NCBI GenBank assembly: GCA_963755715.1 | Contig: CAVWLW010000032.1 | Span: forward strand, 22,564-86,563 | Origin: an uncultured delta proteobacterium | GTDB taxonomy: Bacteria > Desulfobacterota > Binatia > UBA9968 | DNA: 64,000 bases | Reading direction: 5' to 3' | Shown here: positions 15,262 through 20,915 of the stretch, in pieces | How positions within the stretch are numbered: position 1 is the first letter of the stretch | Layout of the letters: each line of letters starts with the position of its first letter | Made by a program: the position numbers and the translations under genes | Notes under the pieces: model-generated | Databases searched by the model: none | What the model was told of the DNA's origin: nothing | Seen by the model: the letters and a program-made list of their open reading frames with translations, nothing else

Positions 15262-15292
15262 TTGCGCATTTGCGCAATTGAGCAAACATGCG
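15262..15292. promoter_or_regulatory. Palindromic operator-like site upstream of the ArsR gene
   Basis: gTTGCGCAtTTGCGCAAttgagcaaacatgcg contains the perfect palindrome TTGCGCAA. The 23-nt core ttgcgcaattgagcaaacatgcg is repeated exactly at 15616-15638. Confidence 0.5.
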
Positions 15293-15604
15293 GTAAAGGG
15301 CGGCATGGACGAAAAGGTCTATTGCCAGTCGCGTCTTTGCCGCCTCATGGGTAACCCGATCGCTTTCGCCGTCGTCGATGCGCTCAGTCAGAATAAAGAA
15401 CTAACCCCGAGCGAGATCGCGCACGCCGTTGGCCGCAGCGTGTCGCGAGTGAGCCACGTCTTGGCGTCGTTACGGTTGGCAGAGGTCGTCCGTTATGACA
15501 CCGACGGGCGACAGGCGCGCTACCGCTTGAAACATCCTCGGGAAACTCGGGACCTTCTGAAGGCCCTCGCATCATTCATCGACTTGTCCTCGGCGTTTCA
15601 GTGA
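15278..15604 (+). CDS. ArsR/SmtB-family transcriptional regulator
   Basis: …MGNPIAFAVVDALSQNKELTPSEIAHAVGRSVSRVSHVLASLRLAEVVRYDTDGRQARYRLKH… is a winged HTH. The likely start is the ATG at 15347. Confidence 0.8.
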   Translation: MSKHAVKGGMDEKVYCQSRLCRLMGNPIAFAVVDALSQNKELTPSEIAHAVGRSVSRVSHVLASLRLAEVVRYDTDGRQARYRLKHPRETRDLLKALASFIDLSSAFQ

Positions 15605-15640: not shown

Positions 15641-16000
15641 TTCCCGGTGGGAGGAGCAGCAAGAGAATCTCCACGCACGAACGAACTGCAAACTGTAGAA
15701 ATCAAAACTCAGTGTGTTCTTGAACGTAAGTCCGGTGACTATGATGCCTTAGCCGAGCCGGTGGCGTCTACGTCGGTATCTCGCCCATAGCCCGGCGACC
15801 GGGTTTTCACGCTACCCGAGGTCGTTCAAGGAACAACCGTGAGCACCGCGCAACCGTCAACCGCAAAGTCCTGGAATGCAGAATCGTGCATTGGCCAACA
15901 GCAGCACCGCGATTGTCTTTGATCCACGTCCCAGAGGCGGCCATAGAGCCACTCTCGTTTTGGCTTGGCGGACGGTCCGGCGAATGGTAATTTCTATGCG

Positions 16001-16321
16001 ATGAAAACGAGTATTGATCACGCCGGCAGATTGTTGATACCTAAGGAAATTCGTCGGAAGTCCGGCATCAAGCCAGGAATGCCGCTTGAGGTGCGTTGGG
16101 AAAAAGGTGCCATCGCCATTACTCCGGCTCCATTACCAGTGAAGCTGCGAAGGCGAGACCGACTGCTGGTAGCGATTCGGCGCAAGAATGGCCCATCTCT
16201 TTCCACCAAGACCGTCAACTTAACCCGCAAGGCACAGCGCAAAGATTTTTGGCGACTTGTCGACCGTGCCCACAAAAGAGGGGGAAAAGAAAGGGTTTAC
16301 CAAGCTCGACGATCTACCTGA
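16001..16321 (+). CDS. AbrB/MazE/SpoVT-family DNA-binding protein (antitoxin-like, no cognate toxin seen)
   Basis: MKTSIDHAGRLLIPKEIRRKSGIKPGMPLEVRWEKGAIAI is a swapped-hairpin barrel motif. Confidence 0.6.
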   Translation: MKTSIDHAGRLLIPKEIRRKSGIKPGMPLEVRWEKGAIAITPAPLPVKLRRRDRLLVAIRRKNGPSLSTKTVNLTRKAQRKDFWRLVDRAHKRGGKERVYQARRST

Positions 16322-16360
16322 GTAAGAATCGCAGCCCAAAAGACGCCGCCGTCGGTCACC

Positions 16361-16500
16361 CCGACTATCGTTTCATCTGCCAGGAGATGTGGCGCAGGAT
16401 GCAGGAAGTCCATCCAGCGTTGGCGGAGTGCGGCAAGTTTATCGATTGGAAAAAATATCGGTTGGGGCGATTACAGTCAGAAATGCGGACGGAGTTTAAG
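16361..16500 (+). repeat. thyX 3'-end direct repeat, copy 2
   Basis: Near-identical to 14871-15010. Encodes …HPDYRFICQEMWRRMQEVHPALAECGKFIDWKKYRLGRLQSEMRTEFK in frame. Confidence 0.8.
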
Positions 16501-16657
16501 AGGTCAACAATTGAGAATAAAGCATAGTTGAGCGGTAGTTATGAAGGTTGCAATATTCTCGTTGCTCGGTGAGTTGTGGACCCGGTAGGGGGATTGGATT
16601 GTTTATTTGTCCAGGCCTGACCTTGGCGACCTGACCGAAGGGGAAAATCATGACAAA

Positions 16658-17401
16658 TCAGCTCTTGATCTTGCCCAGAATGTGAAGGATCTGAAGTCTG
16701 AGTGGTTTGGGAAAGGTAAGCTGACCGGCCTGGAACCTGCCAAAGCAGAAGTTAAAAATTGATAGGAAATCGTGACGCAAGGTTTGTGAAGTGTGGTGTT
16801 GATGGAGGGCGCGCAGCGCCGGGCCATGGCAATTCCGGACTTTGACTGCGCTCCCACACGGACAGGTGTGATGGCCACGATAACCCCACTCGAAAAGGAA
16901 AATTATGACGGCCAGCGCCACCAATTCATCGGCCAGGTGCAGCGTGTCAATGTAGTGTTGGACGATTCCCTCCTGCCCGTGCGCCTGTTCAGCGAAAGGA
17001 TGCTGACCATGCTGTTTCCAATAGCAGTAACCGTACAAATAGGGAATGACCAGCCGGTTTACAAAACCGAGCAGTGAAGGTTGTTCGAAGAAAATCCGTC
17101 GTTCCTCCACTGGGACGGCCAGACAAAGCGACCCGTCACTATAAATGTGTGGATAACTGCGCTCGATTCTGCCCGCGGTCTCTCTTACCCGCGGCAACAT
17201 GTCTGGAAAGACAGGGGGGATGCGCAATTCGATCTCGAACTTATCCGTAACCGTTTCGAGTCCGTCGGCCGATGCTTCGAACGGCAGGCTTCCAGAGAGC
17301 AACGTTTCATGTTCCAGTTCGGTAAGGTTCGTGAGGCCCCGATAAATTTCCATTAGCTCGGCGAGCTGCCTCGTCATCTCCTCGGTCACCCGGCCCTCCA
17401 A
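16658..17401 (-). CDS. Stand-alone E2 (UBC-fold) ubiquitin-conjugating-like enzyme with a C-terminal SEC-C zinc finger (Cap2-short-like)
   Basis: UBC core …IELRIPPVFPDMLPRVRE…ERSYPHIYSDGSLCLAVPVEE is an HPN-like motif plus a catalytic Cys. The C-terminal HHTCPCGSAVKVRNCHGP matches the SecA-type SEC-C metal-binding motif. The start overlaps the upstream NTase by 16 nt. Confidence 0.65.
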   Translation of the reverse strand: MEGRVTEEMTRQLAELMEIYRGLTNLTELEHETLLSGSLPFEASADGLETVTDKFEIELRIPPVFPDMLPRVRETAGRIERSYPHIYSDGSLCLAVPVEERRIFFEQPSLLGFVNRLVIPYLYGYCYWKQHGQHPFAEQAHGQEGIVQHYIDTLHLADELVALAVIIFLFEWGYRGHHTCPCGSAVKVRNCHGPALRALHQHHTSQTLRHDFLSIFNFCFGRFQAGQLTFPKPLRLQILHILGKIKS

Positions 17402-18590
17402 GGCTTGGCGGCGCCTGTGATGTGGATGCGAGGGGGACTGTCGATCAGGGTTTCAGTCGGAACGACGATCTCAAAATTCTTCGAGACGACCGTCGCACCC
17501 AAAGCGCTGGATAAGTGTTTCTTCAGCTGGCTCGGATTGGCTTCTCTCAGGATCTCAATAACGTCTTTCTGCAAGGCCCCCAACCATAAGAAGAAGGCGC
17601 GAGCGCGGGCGTGGCTATCCTCGTGCCAGCGGTCGGCAAAATTTTCTGCGGGGTTAACAGGGTTTCCGATATACCATTTCCCGTCCGGTGTTCTCTTGAT
17701 CAGTCCCATCGACGAGAGAGAACGGTCAATTGCCTTACCCTCAATGAGGCCCGCGTGTGCACCAAGTTTTTCGACAATACCGCATAGCGCCGAGTAGACA
17801 TCCGTTTCATTCCCGTATAAATGCGCCGACAACGTCGTGATGATGATTGAAATCGGCGCGTATATACAAGGCGCTCTTGGTGATTGAAGCGCGAGTCCAG
17901 GTAGCGTTTCATGATCTGGATTGCGCGTTGCAGCGGTGTGCGTACCAATTGGTCGGGAACTTTGTCGATACTTTCGTAAATGTATGGGATTTGCCGCTGG
18001 ATGACCCGCTTGTTCGAACACGACCTGCTCAAATGCCGCGGCATTTTTCCAGTCGAACCAGCTTCCGTAGCCTCTGGGATTGCTTACAGACCAGATATAG
18101 GAGGAATCCTTCTTGTTCGTAATTGCGATCGATGTGTCCGCATTATCGCGGAGATCAGGAACTCCGGGCAGAATGTCCAGGTGAAAGCCGACACCGTCCT
18201 GCTCGGCGTATTCCAGCGTCCAGCACCGCCGGCCTTCTGCGTCAAGCGTTTTCAGCGTAAGTCCCGTGTTCGCGGAGCCTGTTGCCGACCATGGAGTTGA
18301 CCAACTGTGGATCGGTCCGCTCTTTTGCAGGGGTATTTCGCAGACGAGGTCGATGTCGTAGCTTGCCTCCAAGCCATCTCGGATGGCCTCACTACCGTTC
18401 CCAGCCGGAAAAGAACCCTGTCACGATAAGATGCTCAACTCACCGGAGCGGCCAGGATGTTCCCGTCCTCCAGCCATGCACCAACTGTGTTGTACCGGTC
18501 CACCGCGTCCTGATATTTGCCGGGCGGGATATCAATCTCGGCGGCGACCTGCTCAAGAAAACGCGAATACTTTCTTAAATCGATCGTCAT
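17386..18590 (-). pseudogene. CD-NTase/SMODS-like pol-beta nucleotidyltransferase (cGAS/DncV-like), disrupted in all three frames by stops at 18421-18437
   Basis: The N-terminal helical piece is MTIDLRKYSRFLEQVAAEIDIPPGKYQDAVDRYNTVGAWLEDGNILAAPVS*. The remainder begins with the NTase signature QGSFPAGNGSEAIRDGLEASYDIDLV (GS…DxD), then …GFHLDILPGVPD (third acidic strand) and a helical C-domain ending …AAKPWRAG*. Confidence 0.55.
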
Positions 18591-18616
18591 AATGTTAACC
18601 TCGCACTCTATTGATC

Positions 18617-19654
18617 TTAAGACTTAGTTGCTGTGTCCAGCACATAGACGGGTTCAAATGCCTCGGCCGGCTCCTTAAGAACGCCAGATCGAGCGCAGGG
18701 GTGGCGGTCGCGAGCCAATGAATACCCAAGGCCCTTGAGGTCCTGAATTAATCGCCAGTCGTCCATCTTATATGTGTTGTAGGGGACGATATGGTTTATA
18801 CGGTGTATGGCCGTGCGCTCATGTTCGTGGCCGGTGGCGAGCTTTGCGATACCCATGGCCCCGTGGGACTGCCCGTCCATGAAAAGCTTTACGAGCTTCG
18901 TGCCGAGCGTTCCGATCCCAGCCGATTTCGGAACGGCTAGGTTTCTTCAAGGCAACCGAGGCTCAGGATGTGCAGGGAATCCCGTGACAGCCGAGGAGCG
19001 TCACGGCCTCGACAACGGCGAGATCGATCGGATTGTTCGCCCAAATGCCGCCATCCAAGAGCCCAACACCGTGCTCTGTAATGTGTTGTGGAAAATATGT
19101 CGGTGCCGCGGCGGTCGCGAGCGCGATGTCAACGGCGAACGACTTGTAATCGTTTCTGAGGCGCGGGTGATGCGCCGTCTTGTAGATATACACAGATTGG
19201 GCAACGGGGTTCAGCGGGGATGACAAGTCGGGTTTTCGCGTCACCGAGCCTTTTTCGCCGAGCACATCATGGAGAACGGTGCGCAGAGGTGCTGGGTCAT
19301 GCTTCCTCCGATACACCCAGCGGAGCGCGCGCAGATTTCGGCAAAGATAGTCGGCCACCGGGCGGTCGCCACCGAAAATCTCCGGGCCACGTTGTTCGTA
19401 AAGGTCCAGGAGATAAGAGAGGCCGAAAGGTTCATATTCAAGACCAATAGCGATGATTCCGCCGGTTGAGGTCCCTGCGATCAGATCGAAATAGGAGACG
19501 ATCGGGCGATTGAGATGTTGTTCGAGAGCGGCTAGAAAGGCCGCAGGGAATGTCTGAGAATGCCGCCGCCGTCGATGCACAGTATGCGGCGTTTTGCGGG
19601 CTCACCGTCGTTTTCAATTCCACTTAACTGCACCGATTTTCTGCTTCTCACCAC
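18617..19654 (-). pseudogene. Patatin-like phospholipase (CapV-like effector), at least two frameshifts
   Basis: N-terminus …KRRILCIDGGG (oxyanion motif), then a frameshift. Next frame has …FPAAFLAALEQHL…DLIAGTSTGGIIA (GxSxG) …LLDGGIWANNP (catalytic Asp). The C-terminal third continues in a further frame (18617..18955). Confidence 0.65.
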
Positions 19655-19759
19655 CTGAAGTTTGCGGCTAGGCCTCACTTGTGCAATCATGTTTCAGAGA
19701 TGATACAATCCGTCGAATCGAATGTCAAACAGGTTTTCACATATGAAACGGAGGCCCCA

Positions 19760-20125
19760 TGTCCAAGCTAACCTTGCAAATTCTCGGCAGGAGGTTGGCA
19801 GAAAAGCGAAAGTCACGAGGCATTAGAGAGGTCGCCAAGAAATCGGTGTTAGTCCGGCGACATTGTCCGAATTGAGCGAGGCTATGTCCCTGATATAGAA
19901 ACATTCGGTAAGGTTTGCCGGTGGATGGACGTCGATCCCGGTGAGATCTTAGGAGTAAAGCCGAAGGTGGCTAGTAAACCGAAAGCCGCTGTTCACTTTA
20001 AGAAGGATCAAACTTTGCAAATCGAAACTGCACAAGCTCTCGCTCAAATGATTCTCGCAGCCCAGCGCGCCATGATGGCTTCTGAGGGACAAGAGAATAG
20101 GCCGCTGTGTTGGTCCGGGGTTTAA
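19760..20125 (+). pseudogene. XRE-family HTH regulator (Cro/C1-type), frameshifted
   Basis: MSKLTLQILGRRLAEKRKSRGIREVAK | EIGVSPATLSELERGYVPDIETFGKVCRWMDVDPGEIL… The HTH is split by a 1-nt indel at about 19845. It lies divergent from the patatin gene, and the spacer has TGTTTCA/TGAAACA inverted repeats. Confidence 0.5.
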
Positions 20126-20165
20126 AAGCTGGTGTGAAAATGTCTCCGTTCACCTGCGAAAGGAC

Positions 20166-20711
20166 TTGGGGCTTATACCTAGCGCACCTCTAGACGTGAA
20201 AGCCTTGGCGGAGTGGCTGCATATAGAAATATGGACTCCTCACCAAATTCCTGGGCTTGAGTCGAAATGGACGCATGTACTTCTTAAGAAAGATCCCGAT
20301 GCCTGGTCGGCAGTCACATTAGCCATAAACTCCAAGAATTTGATTATTTTGAACTCTTCTCATTCTAAAGCACGTCAAGCAAGTGACCTGACGCACGAAC
20401 TATCTCATATCTTGATAGGCCACGAGGCTGGTCGGGTAGATATCTCACCGGACGGGTTGTTGATGCTGAACACTTACAATAGAGACCAGGAGGATGAAGC
20501 AAATTGGATGGCGGGGTGCTTGCTCTTGCCAAGAGAAGCCTTGGCGGTTGCTATAAAGCAACAGGTCGACTTCGAGATTACAGCAAAAAAATACGGAGTG
20601 AACCGTGAGATGCTACGTTGGCGGCTTAACGTAACCGGCGTGCAACGTCAGTTTGCACGAGGGCATAACAGGGCTCTGGGGTCTAACTTCCTAGGTCCCG
20701 ACGCTGATTAA
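20166..20711 (+). CDS. ImmA/IrrE-family metallopeptidase
   Basis: HEXXH-type motif (LTHELSHILIGHE). Sits next to an XRE regulator in the low-GC segment (about 42% GC, against about 62% for the window). Confidence 0.7.
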   Translation: MGLIPSAPLDVKALAEWLHIEIWTPHQIPGLESKWTHVLLKKDPDAWSAVTLAINSKNLIILNSSHSKARQASDLTHELSHILIGHEAGRVDISPDGLLMLNTYNRDQEDEANWMAGCLLLPREALAVAIKQQVDFEITAKKYGVNREMLRWRLNVTGVQRQFARGHNRALGSNFLGPDAD

Positions 20712-20915
20712 CGACGGAGCAGGGCTATTCAGGTAAATGTGGCAATGAAACGTTCTTATCGACTTTTGATAGAGGGCCTGGCTTTTGAATCTCATCATTT
20801 CCAACAATCAAAAAGAAAGATTTGAGACAGCATCGAAAGATTCGACACTAACAGCTACTATAAAGAAATTTTGACCTGAAACGTATTCCCCGTACCGAGA
20901 CCGAGTAGGGACGCC

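What the first reader, a model, noticed from the sequence alone, without database searches (positions are those of the whole stretch)
16658..17401. E2/UBC-fold enzyme carrying a SEC-C zinc-finger tail
The C-terminal CPCGSAVKVRNCHG matches the SecA C-terminal SEC-C metal-binding motif. I do not recall this being a described feature of CBASS Cap2-type or other bacterial E2s. It could mediate ribosome or SecB-type interactions, or zinc-dependent target recognition.
Basis: partly seen in the sequence, partly recalled or inferred. Interest (0 to 1): 0.55.

Follow-up and report, generated by a model that had tools for sequence, protein, structure and literature searches.

The report
CBASS E2 with SecA-like metal knuckle
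The gene encodes the ubiquitin-E2-like regulator of a bacterial anti-phage alarm system (CBASS, E2-only type), and its SecA-like metal-binding motif is real and conserved across a large, already catalogued protein family, but nobody has tested what the motif does.

Summary
The ORF is real and lies on the minus strand. Its likely start is GTG at 17389, giving 243 aa at 16658-17389.

It is the last gene of a patatin, clade-G CD-NTase, E2 operon, which is a type II-short ("E2-only") CBASS. PADLOC's CBASS E2 model matches at E=1.5e-71. The AlphaFold model (pLDDT 89) has a UBC fold, with the active-site motif H85...C93.

CPCGSAVKVRNCHG (aa 180-193) has the exact SecA metal-binding pattern CXCX8CH, including the conserved Ser. 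In this protein it scores below Pfam's SEC-C cutoff (15.1 against 20.4 bits). However, its four ligands are kept in 142-143 of 143 diverse family representatives, the same level as the catalytic residues. The family profile's best matches among solved structures are SecA zinc-domain peptides.

The motif is not a tail. It sits between the UBC core and 55 further helical residues.

The combination is not rare. It marks a clade with 1,460 representative clusters at E≤1e-10, all sampled members match PADLOC E2 models, and RefSeq already names some members "SEC-C metal-binding domain-containing protein".

No paper I could search discusses the motif in a CBASS E2. The only characterised E2-only enzyme (Serratia SmE2, 162 aa) has no such extension.

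In this window the partner genes carry many frameshifts.

The parts
16658..17389 (-). E2-like gene (243 aa from GTG 17389; the ORF listing ORF starts at TTG 17401, 247 aa; residue numbers in this report use the 247-aa frame). It is the CBASS type II-short E2.
   Evidence: ORF. PADLOC E2 model PDLC00871 matches at E=1.5e-71. An identical 243-aa protein, P0001, lies on metagenome contig L001. Start context.
17120..17149 (-). Active-site motif HIYSDGSLCL, with His85 (17147-17149) and catalytic Cys93 (17123-17125).
   Evidence: Translation. H85 and C93 are kept in 143 of 143 representatives. The motif aligns with HP(N/H)..G.ICL of UBE2W and other E2s.
16979..16981 (-). Invariant His141, in the conserved loop P-F-x-E-x-x-H-G. 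Candidate second active-site histidine.
   Evidence: Kept in 143 of 143. The region has the lowest pLDDT inside the fold (block 131-140 = 75). The role is inferred by analogy with SmE2 H152.
16823..16864 (-). SecA-like (SEC-C type) metal-binding knuckle CPCGSAVKVRNCHG. Predicted ligands are C180, C182, C191 and H192, plus conserved S184.
   Evidence: The model shows a beta bridge at 179/187 and a helical turn at 188-190, with pLDDT 94-95.
16661..16822 (-). C-terminal helical extension after the knuckle (aa 194-247, three helices). Its sequence and length vary across the family (24-125 residues after the ligand His).
   Evidence: and the consensus.
17386..18590 (-). CD-NTase (clade-G-like cyclase). 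In this window it is split by frameshifts into 18435-18590 and 17386-18372. It ends ...AAKPWRAG*.
   Evidence: PADLOC cyclase models at 2e-56 and 1e-8. The intact 400-aa version is in L001. 8 indels relative to L001. Matches SmCdnG (8HSB) at 2e-32 and 9WOO at 5e-45.
17389..17406 (-). Codons for the CD-NTase C-terminal tail K-P-W-R-A-G. The W-R codons (TGGAGG) contain the Shine-Dalgarno sequence GGAGG (17395-17399) of the E2 gene. This tail is the probable E2 substrate.
   Evidence: The PW motif is conserved in 64 cognate cyclases and in two natural CD-NTase-E2 fusions.
18617..19690 (-). Patatin-like phospholipase effector (CapV-like). In this window it is broken into at least three frames.
   Evidence: Pfam Patatin 2.5e-16. 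PADLOC phospholipase effector 7e-54. NCBIfam CBASS_lipase 5e-44, below its cutoff because the product is truncated. The intact 340-aa version is in L001. 10 indels.
19759..20711 (+). Divergently transcribed HTH (about 19759-20101, frameshifted here) and M78 peptidase (about 20107-20711). A CapH/CapP-like regulator pair.
   Evidence: Pfam Peptidase_M78 4.6e-16. PADLOC capP 3e-11. HTH_3 and M78 genes are called in L001. Indels.

Best explanation
The gene encodes the E2-like regulator of a type II-short (E2-only) CBASS anti-phage operon made up of a patatin phospholipase, a clade-G CD-NTase and the E2.

Residues 1-172 form a UBC fold with catalytic Cys93, His85 and an invariant His141. By analogy with Serratia SmE2, this enzyme probably works without an E1 or ATP. 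It would attack the C-terminal tail of its own cyclase, releasing the few variable residues after the conserved K-P-W motif. It would then hold the cyclase as a thioester or isopeptide adduct and so control cyclic-nucleotide synthesis.

Residues 180-192 are a true SecA-type CXCX8CH metal-binding knuckle, binding Zn2+ or possibly Fe.

My preferred reading is that the knuckle is a structural element. It would lock the polypeptide as it leaves the UBC core and position the variable C-terminal helices, together forming the surface that holds the cyclase. In SmE2 a short C-terminal loop does this job.

Shown here: the fold, the operon context, the motif and its family-wide invariance. Inferred: metal binding, covalent capture of the cyclase, and the structural role of the knuckle.
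For: - Operon and family: PADLOC E2, cyclase and phospholipase models match. The identical E2 sits in an intact operon on L001. The order (effector)-CD-NTase-E2 holds in 66 genomes from many phyla, often with overlapping genes. Alternative effectors are SAVED-2TM, S_4TM and HNH, and no E1 or JAB was found.
- Fold: AlphaFold pLDDT 89.3, and Foldseek finds only UBC/UEV/UFC1 folds.
- Catalytic residues: H85, C93 and H141 are kept in 143 of 143 representatives.
- Knuckle: exact CXCX8CH spacing with the conserved Ser. Ligands are kept in 142-143 of 143. There are SEC-C and SecA-domain hits at family level. The knuckle is modelled confidently, pLDDT 94-95.
- Internal position: the knuckle lies inside the chain, and the sequence after it varies in length and sequence while the knuckle does not. 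This fits a fold-organising element at the edge of the core.
- E1-independent capture: SmE2 cleaves the residue after Gly406 of its cyclase and forms Cys101 and Lys159 adducts. The cyclases here are CdnG-like. They end in a conserved PW motif followed by 1-4 variable residues in 59 of 64 cases. Natural cyclase-E2 fusions keep the PW motif before a linker.
Against: - No metal-binding, conjugation or defence experiment exists for this clade.
- I could not inspect the model's coordinates, so the clustering of the four ligands and the knuckle's position relative to Cys93 are unverified.
- The window protein scores below Pfam's SEC-C cutoff.
- The cyclase tails here have no conserved glycine. The residue after W is R in 34, G in 16 and K in 6, whereas SmE2 needs Gly or Ala at the attachment position. 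The chemistry may therefore differ.
- SmE2 itself is too divergent to align by sequence.
- A purely structural role does not explain why the basic residues of the knuckle loop (K/R187, R189) are also conserved.
- In this window the cyclase and effector are frameshifted, so the system may be inactive in this genome.
Confidence: 0.6

Rival explanations
1. The knuckle is an exposed docking module that works as in SecA. It would bind an acidic partner (SecB, the ribosome or anionic membrane lipids), so placing or switching the cyclase-E2 complex. This could tie CBASS activation to translation or to the membrane where the patatin effector acts.
For: SecA-type metal-binding domains bind SecB and ribosomes, and that binding relieves autoinhibition. 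The basic residues flanking the hydrophobic position are conserved here as in SecA (K/R187 in 89 of 143, R189 in 108 of 143; alignment to SecA peptides). The tail after the knuckle varies while the knuckle is invariant.
Against: Known SecA-like domains are terminal and flexibly tethered, whereas this one is internal and modelled at pLDDT 94-95 between helices. The conserved aromatic residue of SecA-type domains is replaced by Val/Leu/Ile. The family occurs with many effectors, including non-membrane ones such as HNH. No partner was tested.
Confidence: 0.12
2. The knuckle is a redox or iron sensor. Oxidation or metal loss during infection or stress would change E2 activity and so release or activate the cyclase.
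For: SecA-like domains bind iron preferentially through the conserved serine, which is kept here (S184 in 129 of 143). YchJ, a protein with SEC-C-like motifs, was reported as a ROS-sensing switch acting through C-terminal cysteines. Most family members have His177 just before the motif (106 of 143), which could supply an extra ligand.
Against: There is no direct evidence. In YchJ the metal-bound N-terminal cysteines were judged not to be the reactive thiols. Invariant Cys3His sites are most often structural.
Confidence: 0.15
3. The knuckle binds nucleic acid (phage or host RNA/DNA) and gives the E2-only system its infection-sensing input.
For: It is a small Cys3His knuckle with a conserved basic loop. 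YchJ uses a basic C-terminal region next to its SEC-C-like motif to bind DNA.
Against: There is only a single knuckle with few basic residues. No nucleic-acid-binding domain was detected. SmE2 systems work without any such element.
Confidence: 0.08
4. The motif is a chance resemblance, or the ORF is a non-functional relic of a decayed operon.
For: The Pfam SEC-C hit is below threshold in this protein. The neighbouring cyclase, effector and HTH genes carry 8, 10 and 3 indels relative to L001.
Against: The ligands are invariant across 143 representatives at 25-58% identity to the window protein. The E2 ORF is intact and identical at DNA level to the copy in an intact operon.
Confidence: 0.03

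Closest known systems
SmE2 of the Serratia marcescens E2-CBASS (Yan et al., Nat Microbiol 2024, preprint 10.1101/2022.05.25.493364; Xiao et al., mLife 2026, PMC12948482)
   Same: It is an E2-only partner encoded directly after a clade-G CD-NTase, with no E1 or JAB. It has a UBC fold with a catalytic Cys and nearby His residues. The cyclase tail has an aromatic residue followed by a few C-terminal residues.
   Different: SmE2 is 162 aa and ends in a short loop over the active site, with no metal motif or helical extension reported. It is not detectable by sequence from this family. Its cyclase ends Y-G-E with an essential small residue, whereas the cyclases here end K-P-W-(R/G/K)-x(0-4) without a conserved Gly.
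Cap2 (E1-E2 fusion) with Cap3 (JAB) of full type II CBASS (Ledvina et al. 2023, preprint 10.1101/2022.03.31.486616; Jenson et al. 2023, PMC10097602)
   Same: A UBC-like E2 domain acts on the C-terminus of the cognate CD-NTase. Weak PADLOC E1-E2 model hits cover the active-site region.
   Different: There is no E1 adenylation domain and no JAB peptidase in the window or in the related loci examined. Cap2 has no SEC-C-like knuckle as far as the searched papers report.
SecA C-terminal metal-binding domain and its relatives in YecA and YchJ (Pfam PF02810 SEC-C; PDB 1SX0, 1TM6, 1OZB, 9L6B)
   Same: The ligand pattern CXCX8CH is exact, with Pro between the first two Cys, the conserved Gly-Ser, basic residues at matching positions and Gly after His.
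   Different: It is internal rather than at a chain end. The conserved aromatic residue is replaced by Val/Leu/Ile. It is attached to a UBC fold in a defence operon. This sequence is below the Pfam cutoff.
Eukaryotic E2, UEV and UFC1 domains
   Same: The overall UBC fold (Foldseek probability 1.0, TM-score normalised to target 0.45-0.60) and the H-x(7)-C active-site context.
   Different: Sequence identity is 14-18%. There is an extra knuckle and three helices, and the substrate is an enzyme's own tail rather than ubiquitin.

Membership tests
CBASS type II-short (E2-only) E2 | Matches curated CBASS E2 profiles | tested here: met
   PADLOC PDLC00871 at E=1.5e-71 covers residues 6-233, and six further E2 models match at E<=1.7e-25. 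All 143 family representatives match the same seven models at E<=1e-10.
CBASS type II-short (E2-only) E2 | UBC fold with a catalytic cysteine in an H-x(n)-C context | tested here: met
   AlphaFold model pLDDT 89.3. Foldseek hits UEV, UFC1 and E2 folds. H85 and C93 are invariant.
CBASS type II-short (E2-only) E2 | Encoded next to a CD-NTase and a cyclic-nucleotide-activated effector | tested here: met
   The window holds patatin, CD-NTase and E2. The intact operon is in L001. 66 loci keep the arrangement.
CBASS type II-short (E2-only) E2 | No E1 domain and no JAB peptidase in the operon | tested here: met
   None appears among the window neighbours, the genes called in L001 or 24 candidate flanking genes from 20 of the related loci that lack an adjacent patatin. 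Not every flanking ORF of every locus was scanned.
CBASS type II-short (E2-only) E2 | Forms a covalent adduct with the cyclase C-terminus and regulates its activity | not testable with these tools
   This needs biochemistry. The only support is analogy with SmE2 and the conserved PW tail.
SecA-like metal-binding domain (Pfam SEC-C, PF02810) | CXCX8C(H/C) ligand pattern | tested here: met
   C180-P-C182-x8-C191-H192. The pattern is defined.
SecA-like metal-binding domain (Pfam SEC-C, PF02810) | Conserved serine two residues after the second Cys | tested here: met
   S184 is present, and is kept in 129 of 143 representatives. Its role is described.
SecA-like metal-binding domain (Pfam SEC-C, PF02810) | Conserved aromatic residue in the loop (Tyr in the SecA sequence CPCGSGKKYKQCHG) | tested here: not met
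   Val188 here. Across the family it is L 65, I 33, V 17 and F 11.
SecA-like metal-binding domain (Pfam SEC-C, PF02810) | Reaches Pfam's gathering score | tested here: not met
   15.1 bits against 20.4 for the window protein. At family level, 61 of 143 members hit at E<=0.01, the best at 4e-6, and the profile hits SecA zinc-domain peptides at E 0.007-0.02.
SecA-like metal-binding domain (Pfam SEC-C, PF02810) | Lies at the extreme end of the polypeptide | tested here: not met
   55 residues follow it here, and 24-125 in homologs.
SecA-like metal-binding domain (Pfam SEC-C, PF02810) | Binds one Zn or Fe ion; binds SecB or ribosomes | not testable with these tools

The most novel reading that the evidence does not exclude
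The invariant SecA-type knuckle is not just structural. It would be the missing input of E2-only CBASS: a metal-, redox- or partner-dependent switch (ribosome, SecB, membrane or nucleic acid) that decides when the E2 releases or activates its covalently held cyclase. Combined with a cyclase tail that lacks the usual C-terminal glycine (K-P-W-R/G/K), this clade would use a conjugation chemistry and trigger different from both Cap2/Cap3 and SmE2.
Probability: 0.15. Interest if true: 0.7.

Novelty: new member of a known kind. Interest (0 to 1): 0.35.

Why it matters
How CBASS cyclases are kept silent and then switched on by infection is still largely open. For E2-only systems, a single short enzyme (SmE2) carries all the mechanistic knowledge.

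This window's gene belongs to a much larger, phylogenetically broad E2-only clade. Its members all carry an extra SecA-type metal site and a helical extension. Their cyclases end in a K-P-W motif rather than a conserved glycine.

If the metal site proves regulatory, it would give a concrete handle on CBASS activation. If it is structural, the clade is still a better-populated model for E1-independent, ubiquitin-like protein capture.

There is also a practical annotation point. Some RefSeq 'SEC-C metal-binding domain-containing protein' entries that sit next to a 'nucleotidyltransferase' are unrecognised CBASS E2s.

Tried and rejected
- NCBIfam gave no hit for the E2 or the cyclase.
- Sequence searches of the PDB, with the protein and with the family profile, found no CBASS E2 structure. 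SmE2 could therefore not be aligned, and equivalents of its H152/K159 could not be assigned.
- Model coordinates are not exposed, so ligand distances and the distance from the knuckle to Cys93 could not be measured.
- tblastn against 50,697 phage records found nothing.
- Six literature searches combining CBASS, E2, Cap2 or CD-NTase with SEC-C, SecA-like or zinc found no description of the motif (and reading in 13, 41, 52, 60, 61). The one paper holding both 'SEC-C' and CBASS terms concerns an unrelated lactococcal protein, Rugutis.
- I considered that the apparent absence of the motif in 11 of 150 representatives meant it is dispensable. I rejected this: five are fragments, and six have a one-residue insertion (C-x-H) that keeps four ligands.
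- I considered a terminal-glycine, Cap2-like conjugation. I rejected it as the general rule for this clade because the cyclase tails do not conserve Gly.

Full report
**The sequence.** The finding's coordinates match an ORF on the minus strand, 16658..17401 (247 aa from TTG). Codons 16823-16864 read CPCGSAVKVRNCHG. Codons 17120-17149 read HIYSDGSLCL, an E2-type His...Cys active-site motif.

The real start is probably GTG at 17389. It overlaps the stop codon of the upstream gene as GTGA. A GGAGG Shine-Dalgarno sequence lies 5 nt upstream. Most homologs, including a 100% identical metagenomic protein, are 243 aa. Residue numbers below use the 247-aa frame.

**What the gene is.** Pfam sees only sub-threshold matches to UQ_con, Prok-E2_B and SEC-C, and NCBIfam sees nothing. 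PADLOC's CBASS E2 model PDLC00871 matches at E=1.5e-71 over residues 6-233, with six more E2 models at E≤1.7e-25.

The two genes upstream on the same strand are a CD-NTase cyclase (PADLOC 2e-56) and a patatin phospholipase effector (PADLOC 7e-54; Pfam Patatin 2.5e-16). Divergently upstream lie an HTH and an M78 peptidase that matches PADLOC capP.

A 7.1-kb metagenome contig (L001) is 96.9% identical. It carries the same operon intact: patatin 340 aa, CD-NTase 400 aa, E2 243 aa, with a 4-nt overlap between cyclase and E2.

The cyclase is CdnG-like: SmCdnG (8HSB) matches at E=2e-32 and 9WOO at 5e-45. No E1 or JAB is present. This is therefore a type II-short, "E2-only" CBASS.

**Structure.** An AlphaFold2 model built on 27 homologs is confident (mean pLDDT 89.3, pTM 0.79). 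Its layout is:
- Residues 1-172: N-terminal helix, four strands, active-site loop and four helices.
- Residues 176-192: a small knuckle, with a beta bridge at 179/187 and a helical turn at 188-190 (pLDDT 94-95).
- Residues 193-245: three more helices.

Foldseek against the PDB returns only UBC-fold proteins (TSG101 UEV, UFC1 and E2s; E about 2e-3, probability 1.0, TM-score normalised to target 0.45-0.60). Nothing matches the extension.

**Is the SEC-C-like motif real?** In this one protein the Pfam SEC-C hit is below the gathering score (15.1 against 20.4 bits). [quoted passage not shown] It departs in one respect: the conserved aromatic residue is Val here.

The family evidence is stronger.
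- A profile of 27 homologs finds, as its best PDB matches, the SecA zinc-binding-domain peptides 1TM6, 1OZB and 1SX0 (E 0.007-0.02), and then the YchJ C-terminal domain.
- An HMM search of 1.84 billion cluster representatives finds 2,180 relatives at E≤1e-3, 1,460 at E≤1e-10 and 302 at E≤1e-30.
- In an alignment of 143 full-length representatives (25-58% identical to the window protein, mean column identity 21%), C180, C182, C191 and H192 are kept in 142, 142, 143 and 142 sequences, and S184 in 129. The catalytic H85 and C93, and a further invariant H141, are kept in 143 each.
- The few full-length members that seemed to lack the motif have C-x-H instead of C-H.
- 61 of the 143 hit Pfam SEC-C at E≤0.01, the best at 4e-6.

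The motif is therefore a real and defining feature of this clade, not a chance match. It is not a tail: 55 residues follow it here and 24-125 in relatives. That following region varies in length and sequence while the knuckle does not.

**Is it new?** As a sequence feature it is not rare, and it is not invisible to databases.
- All 143 representatives match the same seven PADLOC CBASS E2 models.
- RefSeq names homologs "SEC-C metal-binding domain-containing protein" or "SEC-C domain-containing protein", directly after a "nucleotidyltransferase" gene. Others are "hypothetical protein".
- Standard annotation sees the knuckle but not the E2. Only 15 of 143 hit UQ_con.

In the literature I could search, nothing connects SEC-C, SecA-like motifs or zinc with CBASS E2 proteins.

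The E2-only system that has been characterised, from Serratia marcescens, has a 162-aa E2 ending in a short loop over the active site. Neither the original study nor the 2026 cryo-EM paper mentions a metal site or an extension. SmE2 is too divergent to be found from this family by sequence.

**Context across genomes.** A scan of one genome per species returned 66 loci in Gammaproteobacteria, Alphaproteobacteria, Binatia, Nitrospirota, Latescibacterota, Desulfobacterota, Spirochaetia, Planctomycetota, Bacillota and others. Note that one of the two search patterns was the motif itself.

In almost all of these loci a CD-NTase ends at or overlaps the E2 start, usually with patatin upstream. Where patatin is absent, the adjacent genes are SAVED-2TM, S_4TM or HNH-type effectors. 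No E1 or JAB appeared. No homolog was found in 50,697 phage records. Eleven plasmids carry one.

**How it probably works.** The reference mechanism is SmE2. Without E1 or ATP, it cleaves off the residue after Gly406 of its cyclase. It then forms a thioester on Cys101 and an isopeptide on Lys159, and drives poly-cGASylation that activates cGAMP synthesis. Two histidines near the cysteine are essential.

The clade studied here has the same ingredients: H85, C93 and an invariant H141 in a lower-confidence loop.

The cognate cyclases end in a strongly conserved (A/S/P)(K/R/Q)-P-W motif. In 59 of 64 loci this is followed by 1-4 variable residues. Such residues are what one would expect of a leaving group in a protease-like, energy-conserving capture. 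Two natural cyclase-E2 fusion proteins keep R-P-W-R and Q-P-W-S before a linker and the E2 domain.

I therefore infer covalent capture of the cyclase tail by Cys93.

For the knuckle, I favour a structural metal site that fixes the chain where it leaves the UBC core and builds the cyclase-holding C-terminal module. The reasons are that it is internal, modelled with high confidence, as invariant as the catalytic residues, and placed next to a variable tail.

Three alternatives are not excluded:
- A SecA-like docking surface for SecB, ribosomes or membranes.
- An iron or redox switch.
- A nucleic-acid contact.

The conserved basic residues K/R187 and R189 are the main observation that a purely structural role leaves unexplained.

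**Caveats.**
- I could not read the model's coordinates, so ligand clustering and the knuckle's distance from Cys93 are unverified.
- The residue after the conserved Trp is R (34), G (16) or K (6), not a conserved glycine, whereas SmE2 needs Gly or Ala there. The attachment chemistry may differ.
- Part of the R/G/K preference may be a dual-coding effect. In the window, the W-R codons TGGAGG are the Shine-Dalgarno sequence of the E2 gene.
- In this window the patatin, cyclase and HTH genes carry 10, 8 and 3 indels relative to L001. The E2 gene has none, and no difference of any kind was found between window 16342 and 17860. Other long genes in the window look intact. This is either local assembly error in a strain-variable island or real decay, and I could not tell which.

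The gene is an ordinary member of a large, already catalogued CBASS E2 clade. The clade's SecA-type metal knuckle is universal and machine-annotated, but undescribed in the searched literature and uncharacterised. Interest is moderate-low for the gene itself. It would be higher if the knuckle turns out to be a regulatory input.

Noticed in passing
window 17860-20884, compared with L001: Relative to a 96.9% identical metagenome contig with intact genes, the window's patatin, CD-NTase and HTH genes carry 10, 8 and 3 indels plus substitutions. The stretch 16342-17860 (E2 and the 3' third of the cyclase) has no differences at all. The indel-to-substitution ratio is too high for ordinary pseudogene decay, so it may be a local assembly or strain-mixture artefact. 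Alternatively, the toxic effector and cyclase may have been inactivated.
   Followed up: partly
window 17389-17406; loci L002-L067, CD-NTase 3' ends: Cyclases paired with this E2 clade end in a conserved (K/R/Q)-P-W motif. It is followed by R (34), G (16), K (6) or another residue (8), then 0-4 more residues in most. There is no conserved C-terminal glycine, unlike what is reported for SmCdnG and for Cap2-type systems.
   Followed up: partly
window 17395-17400: The Trp-Arg codons (TGGAGG) of the cyclase tail contain the GGAGG Shine-Dalgarno sequence of the overlapping E2 gene (GTGA start/stop overlap). The purine-rich R/G/K preference after Trp may partly reflect this dual coding.
   Followed up: partly
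proteins P0140 (651 aa) and P0185 (616 aa): These are natural single-chain CD-NTase-E2 fusions. They keep the P-W motif at the end of the cyclase part, then a linker of about 10-35 residues, then the E2 with its knuckle. This is compatible with in-cis processing.
   Followed up: partly
window 19759-20711 (+): A divergently transcribed HTH and M78 peptidase pair (PADLOC capP hit), resembling the CapH/CapP transcriptional regulators of CBASS. The HTH is frameshifted in this window.
   Followed up: partly
window 15278-15604 (+) and 15965-16321 (+): An ArsR-family HTH protein and a MazE/AbrB-like antitoxin-type protein lie just downstream of the CBASS operon. No obvious toxin partner was examined.
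   Followed up: no
L026:3550-5119: One Arenicellales genome carries a second, much more divergent CD-NTase-E2 pair about 2 kb upstream of the main one, apparently tandem CBASS modules.
   Followed up: no
RefSeq plasmids NC_015512.1, NZ_LN846931.1 and NC_015694.1: Homologs are annotated only as 'SEC-C (metal-binding) domain-containing protein' or 'hypothetical protein', next to a 'nucleotidyltransferase'. The E2 identity, and hence the CBASS system, is missed by standard annotation.
   Followed up: partly
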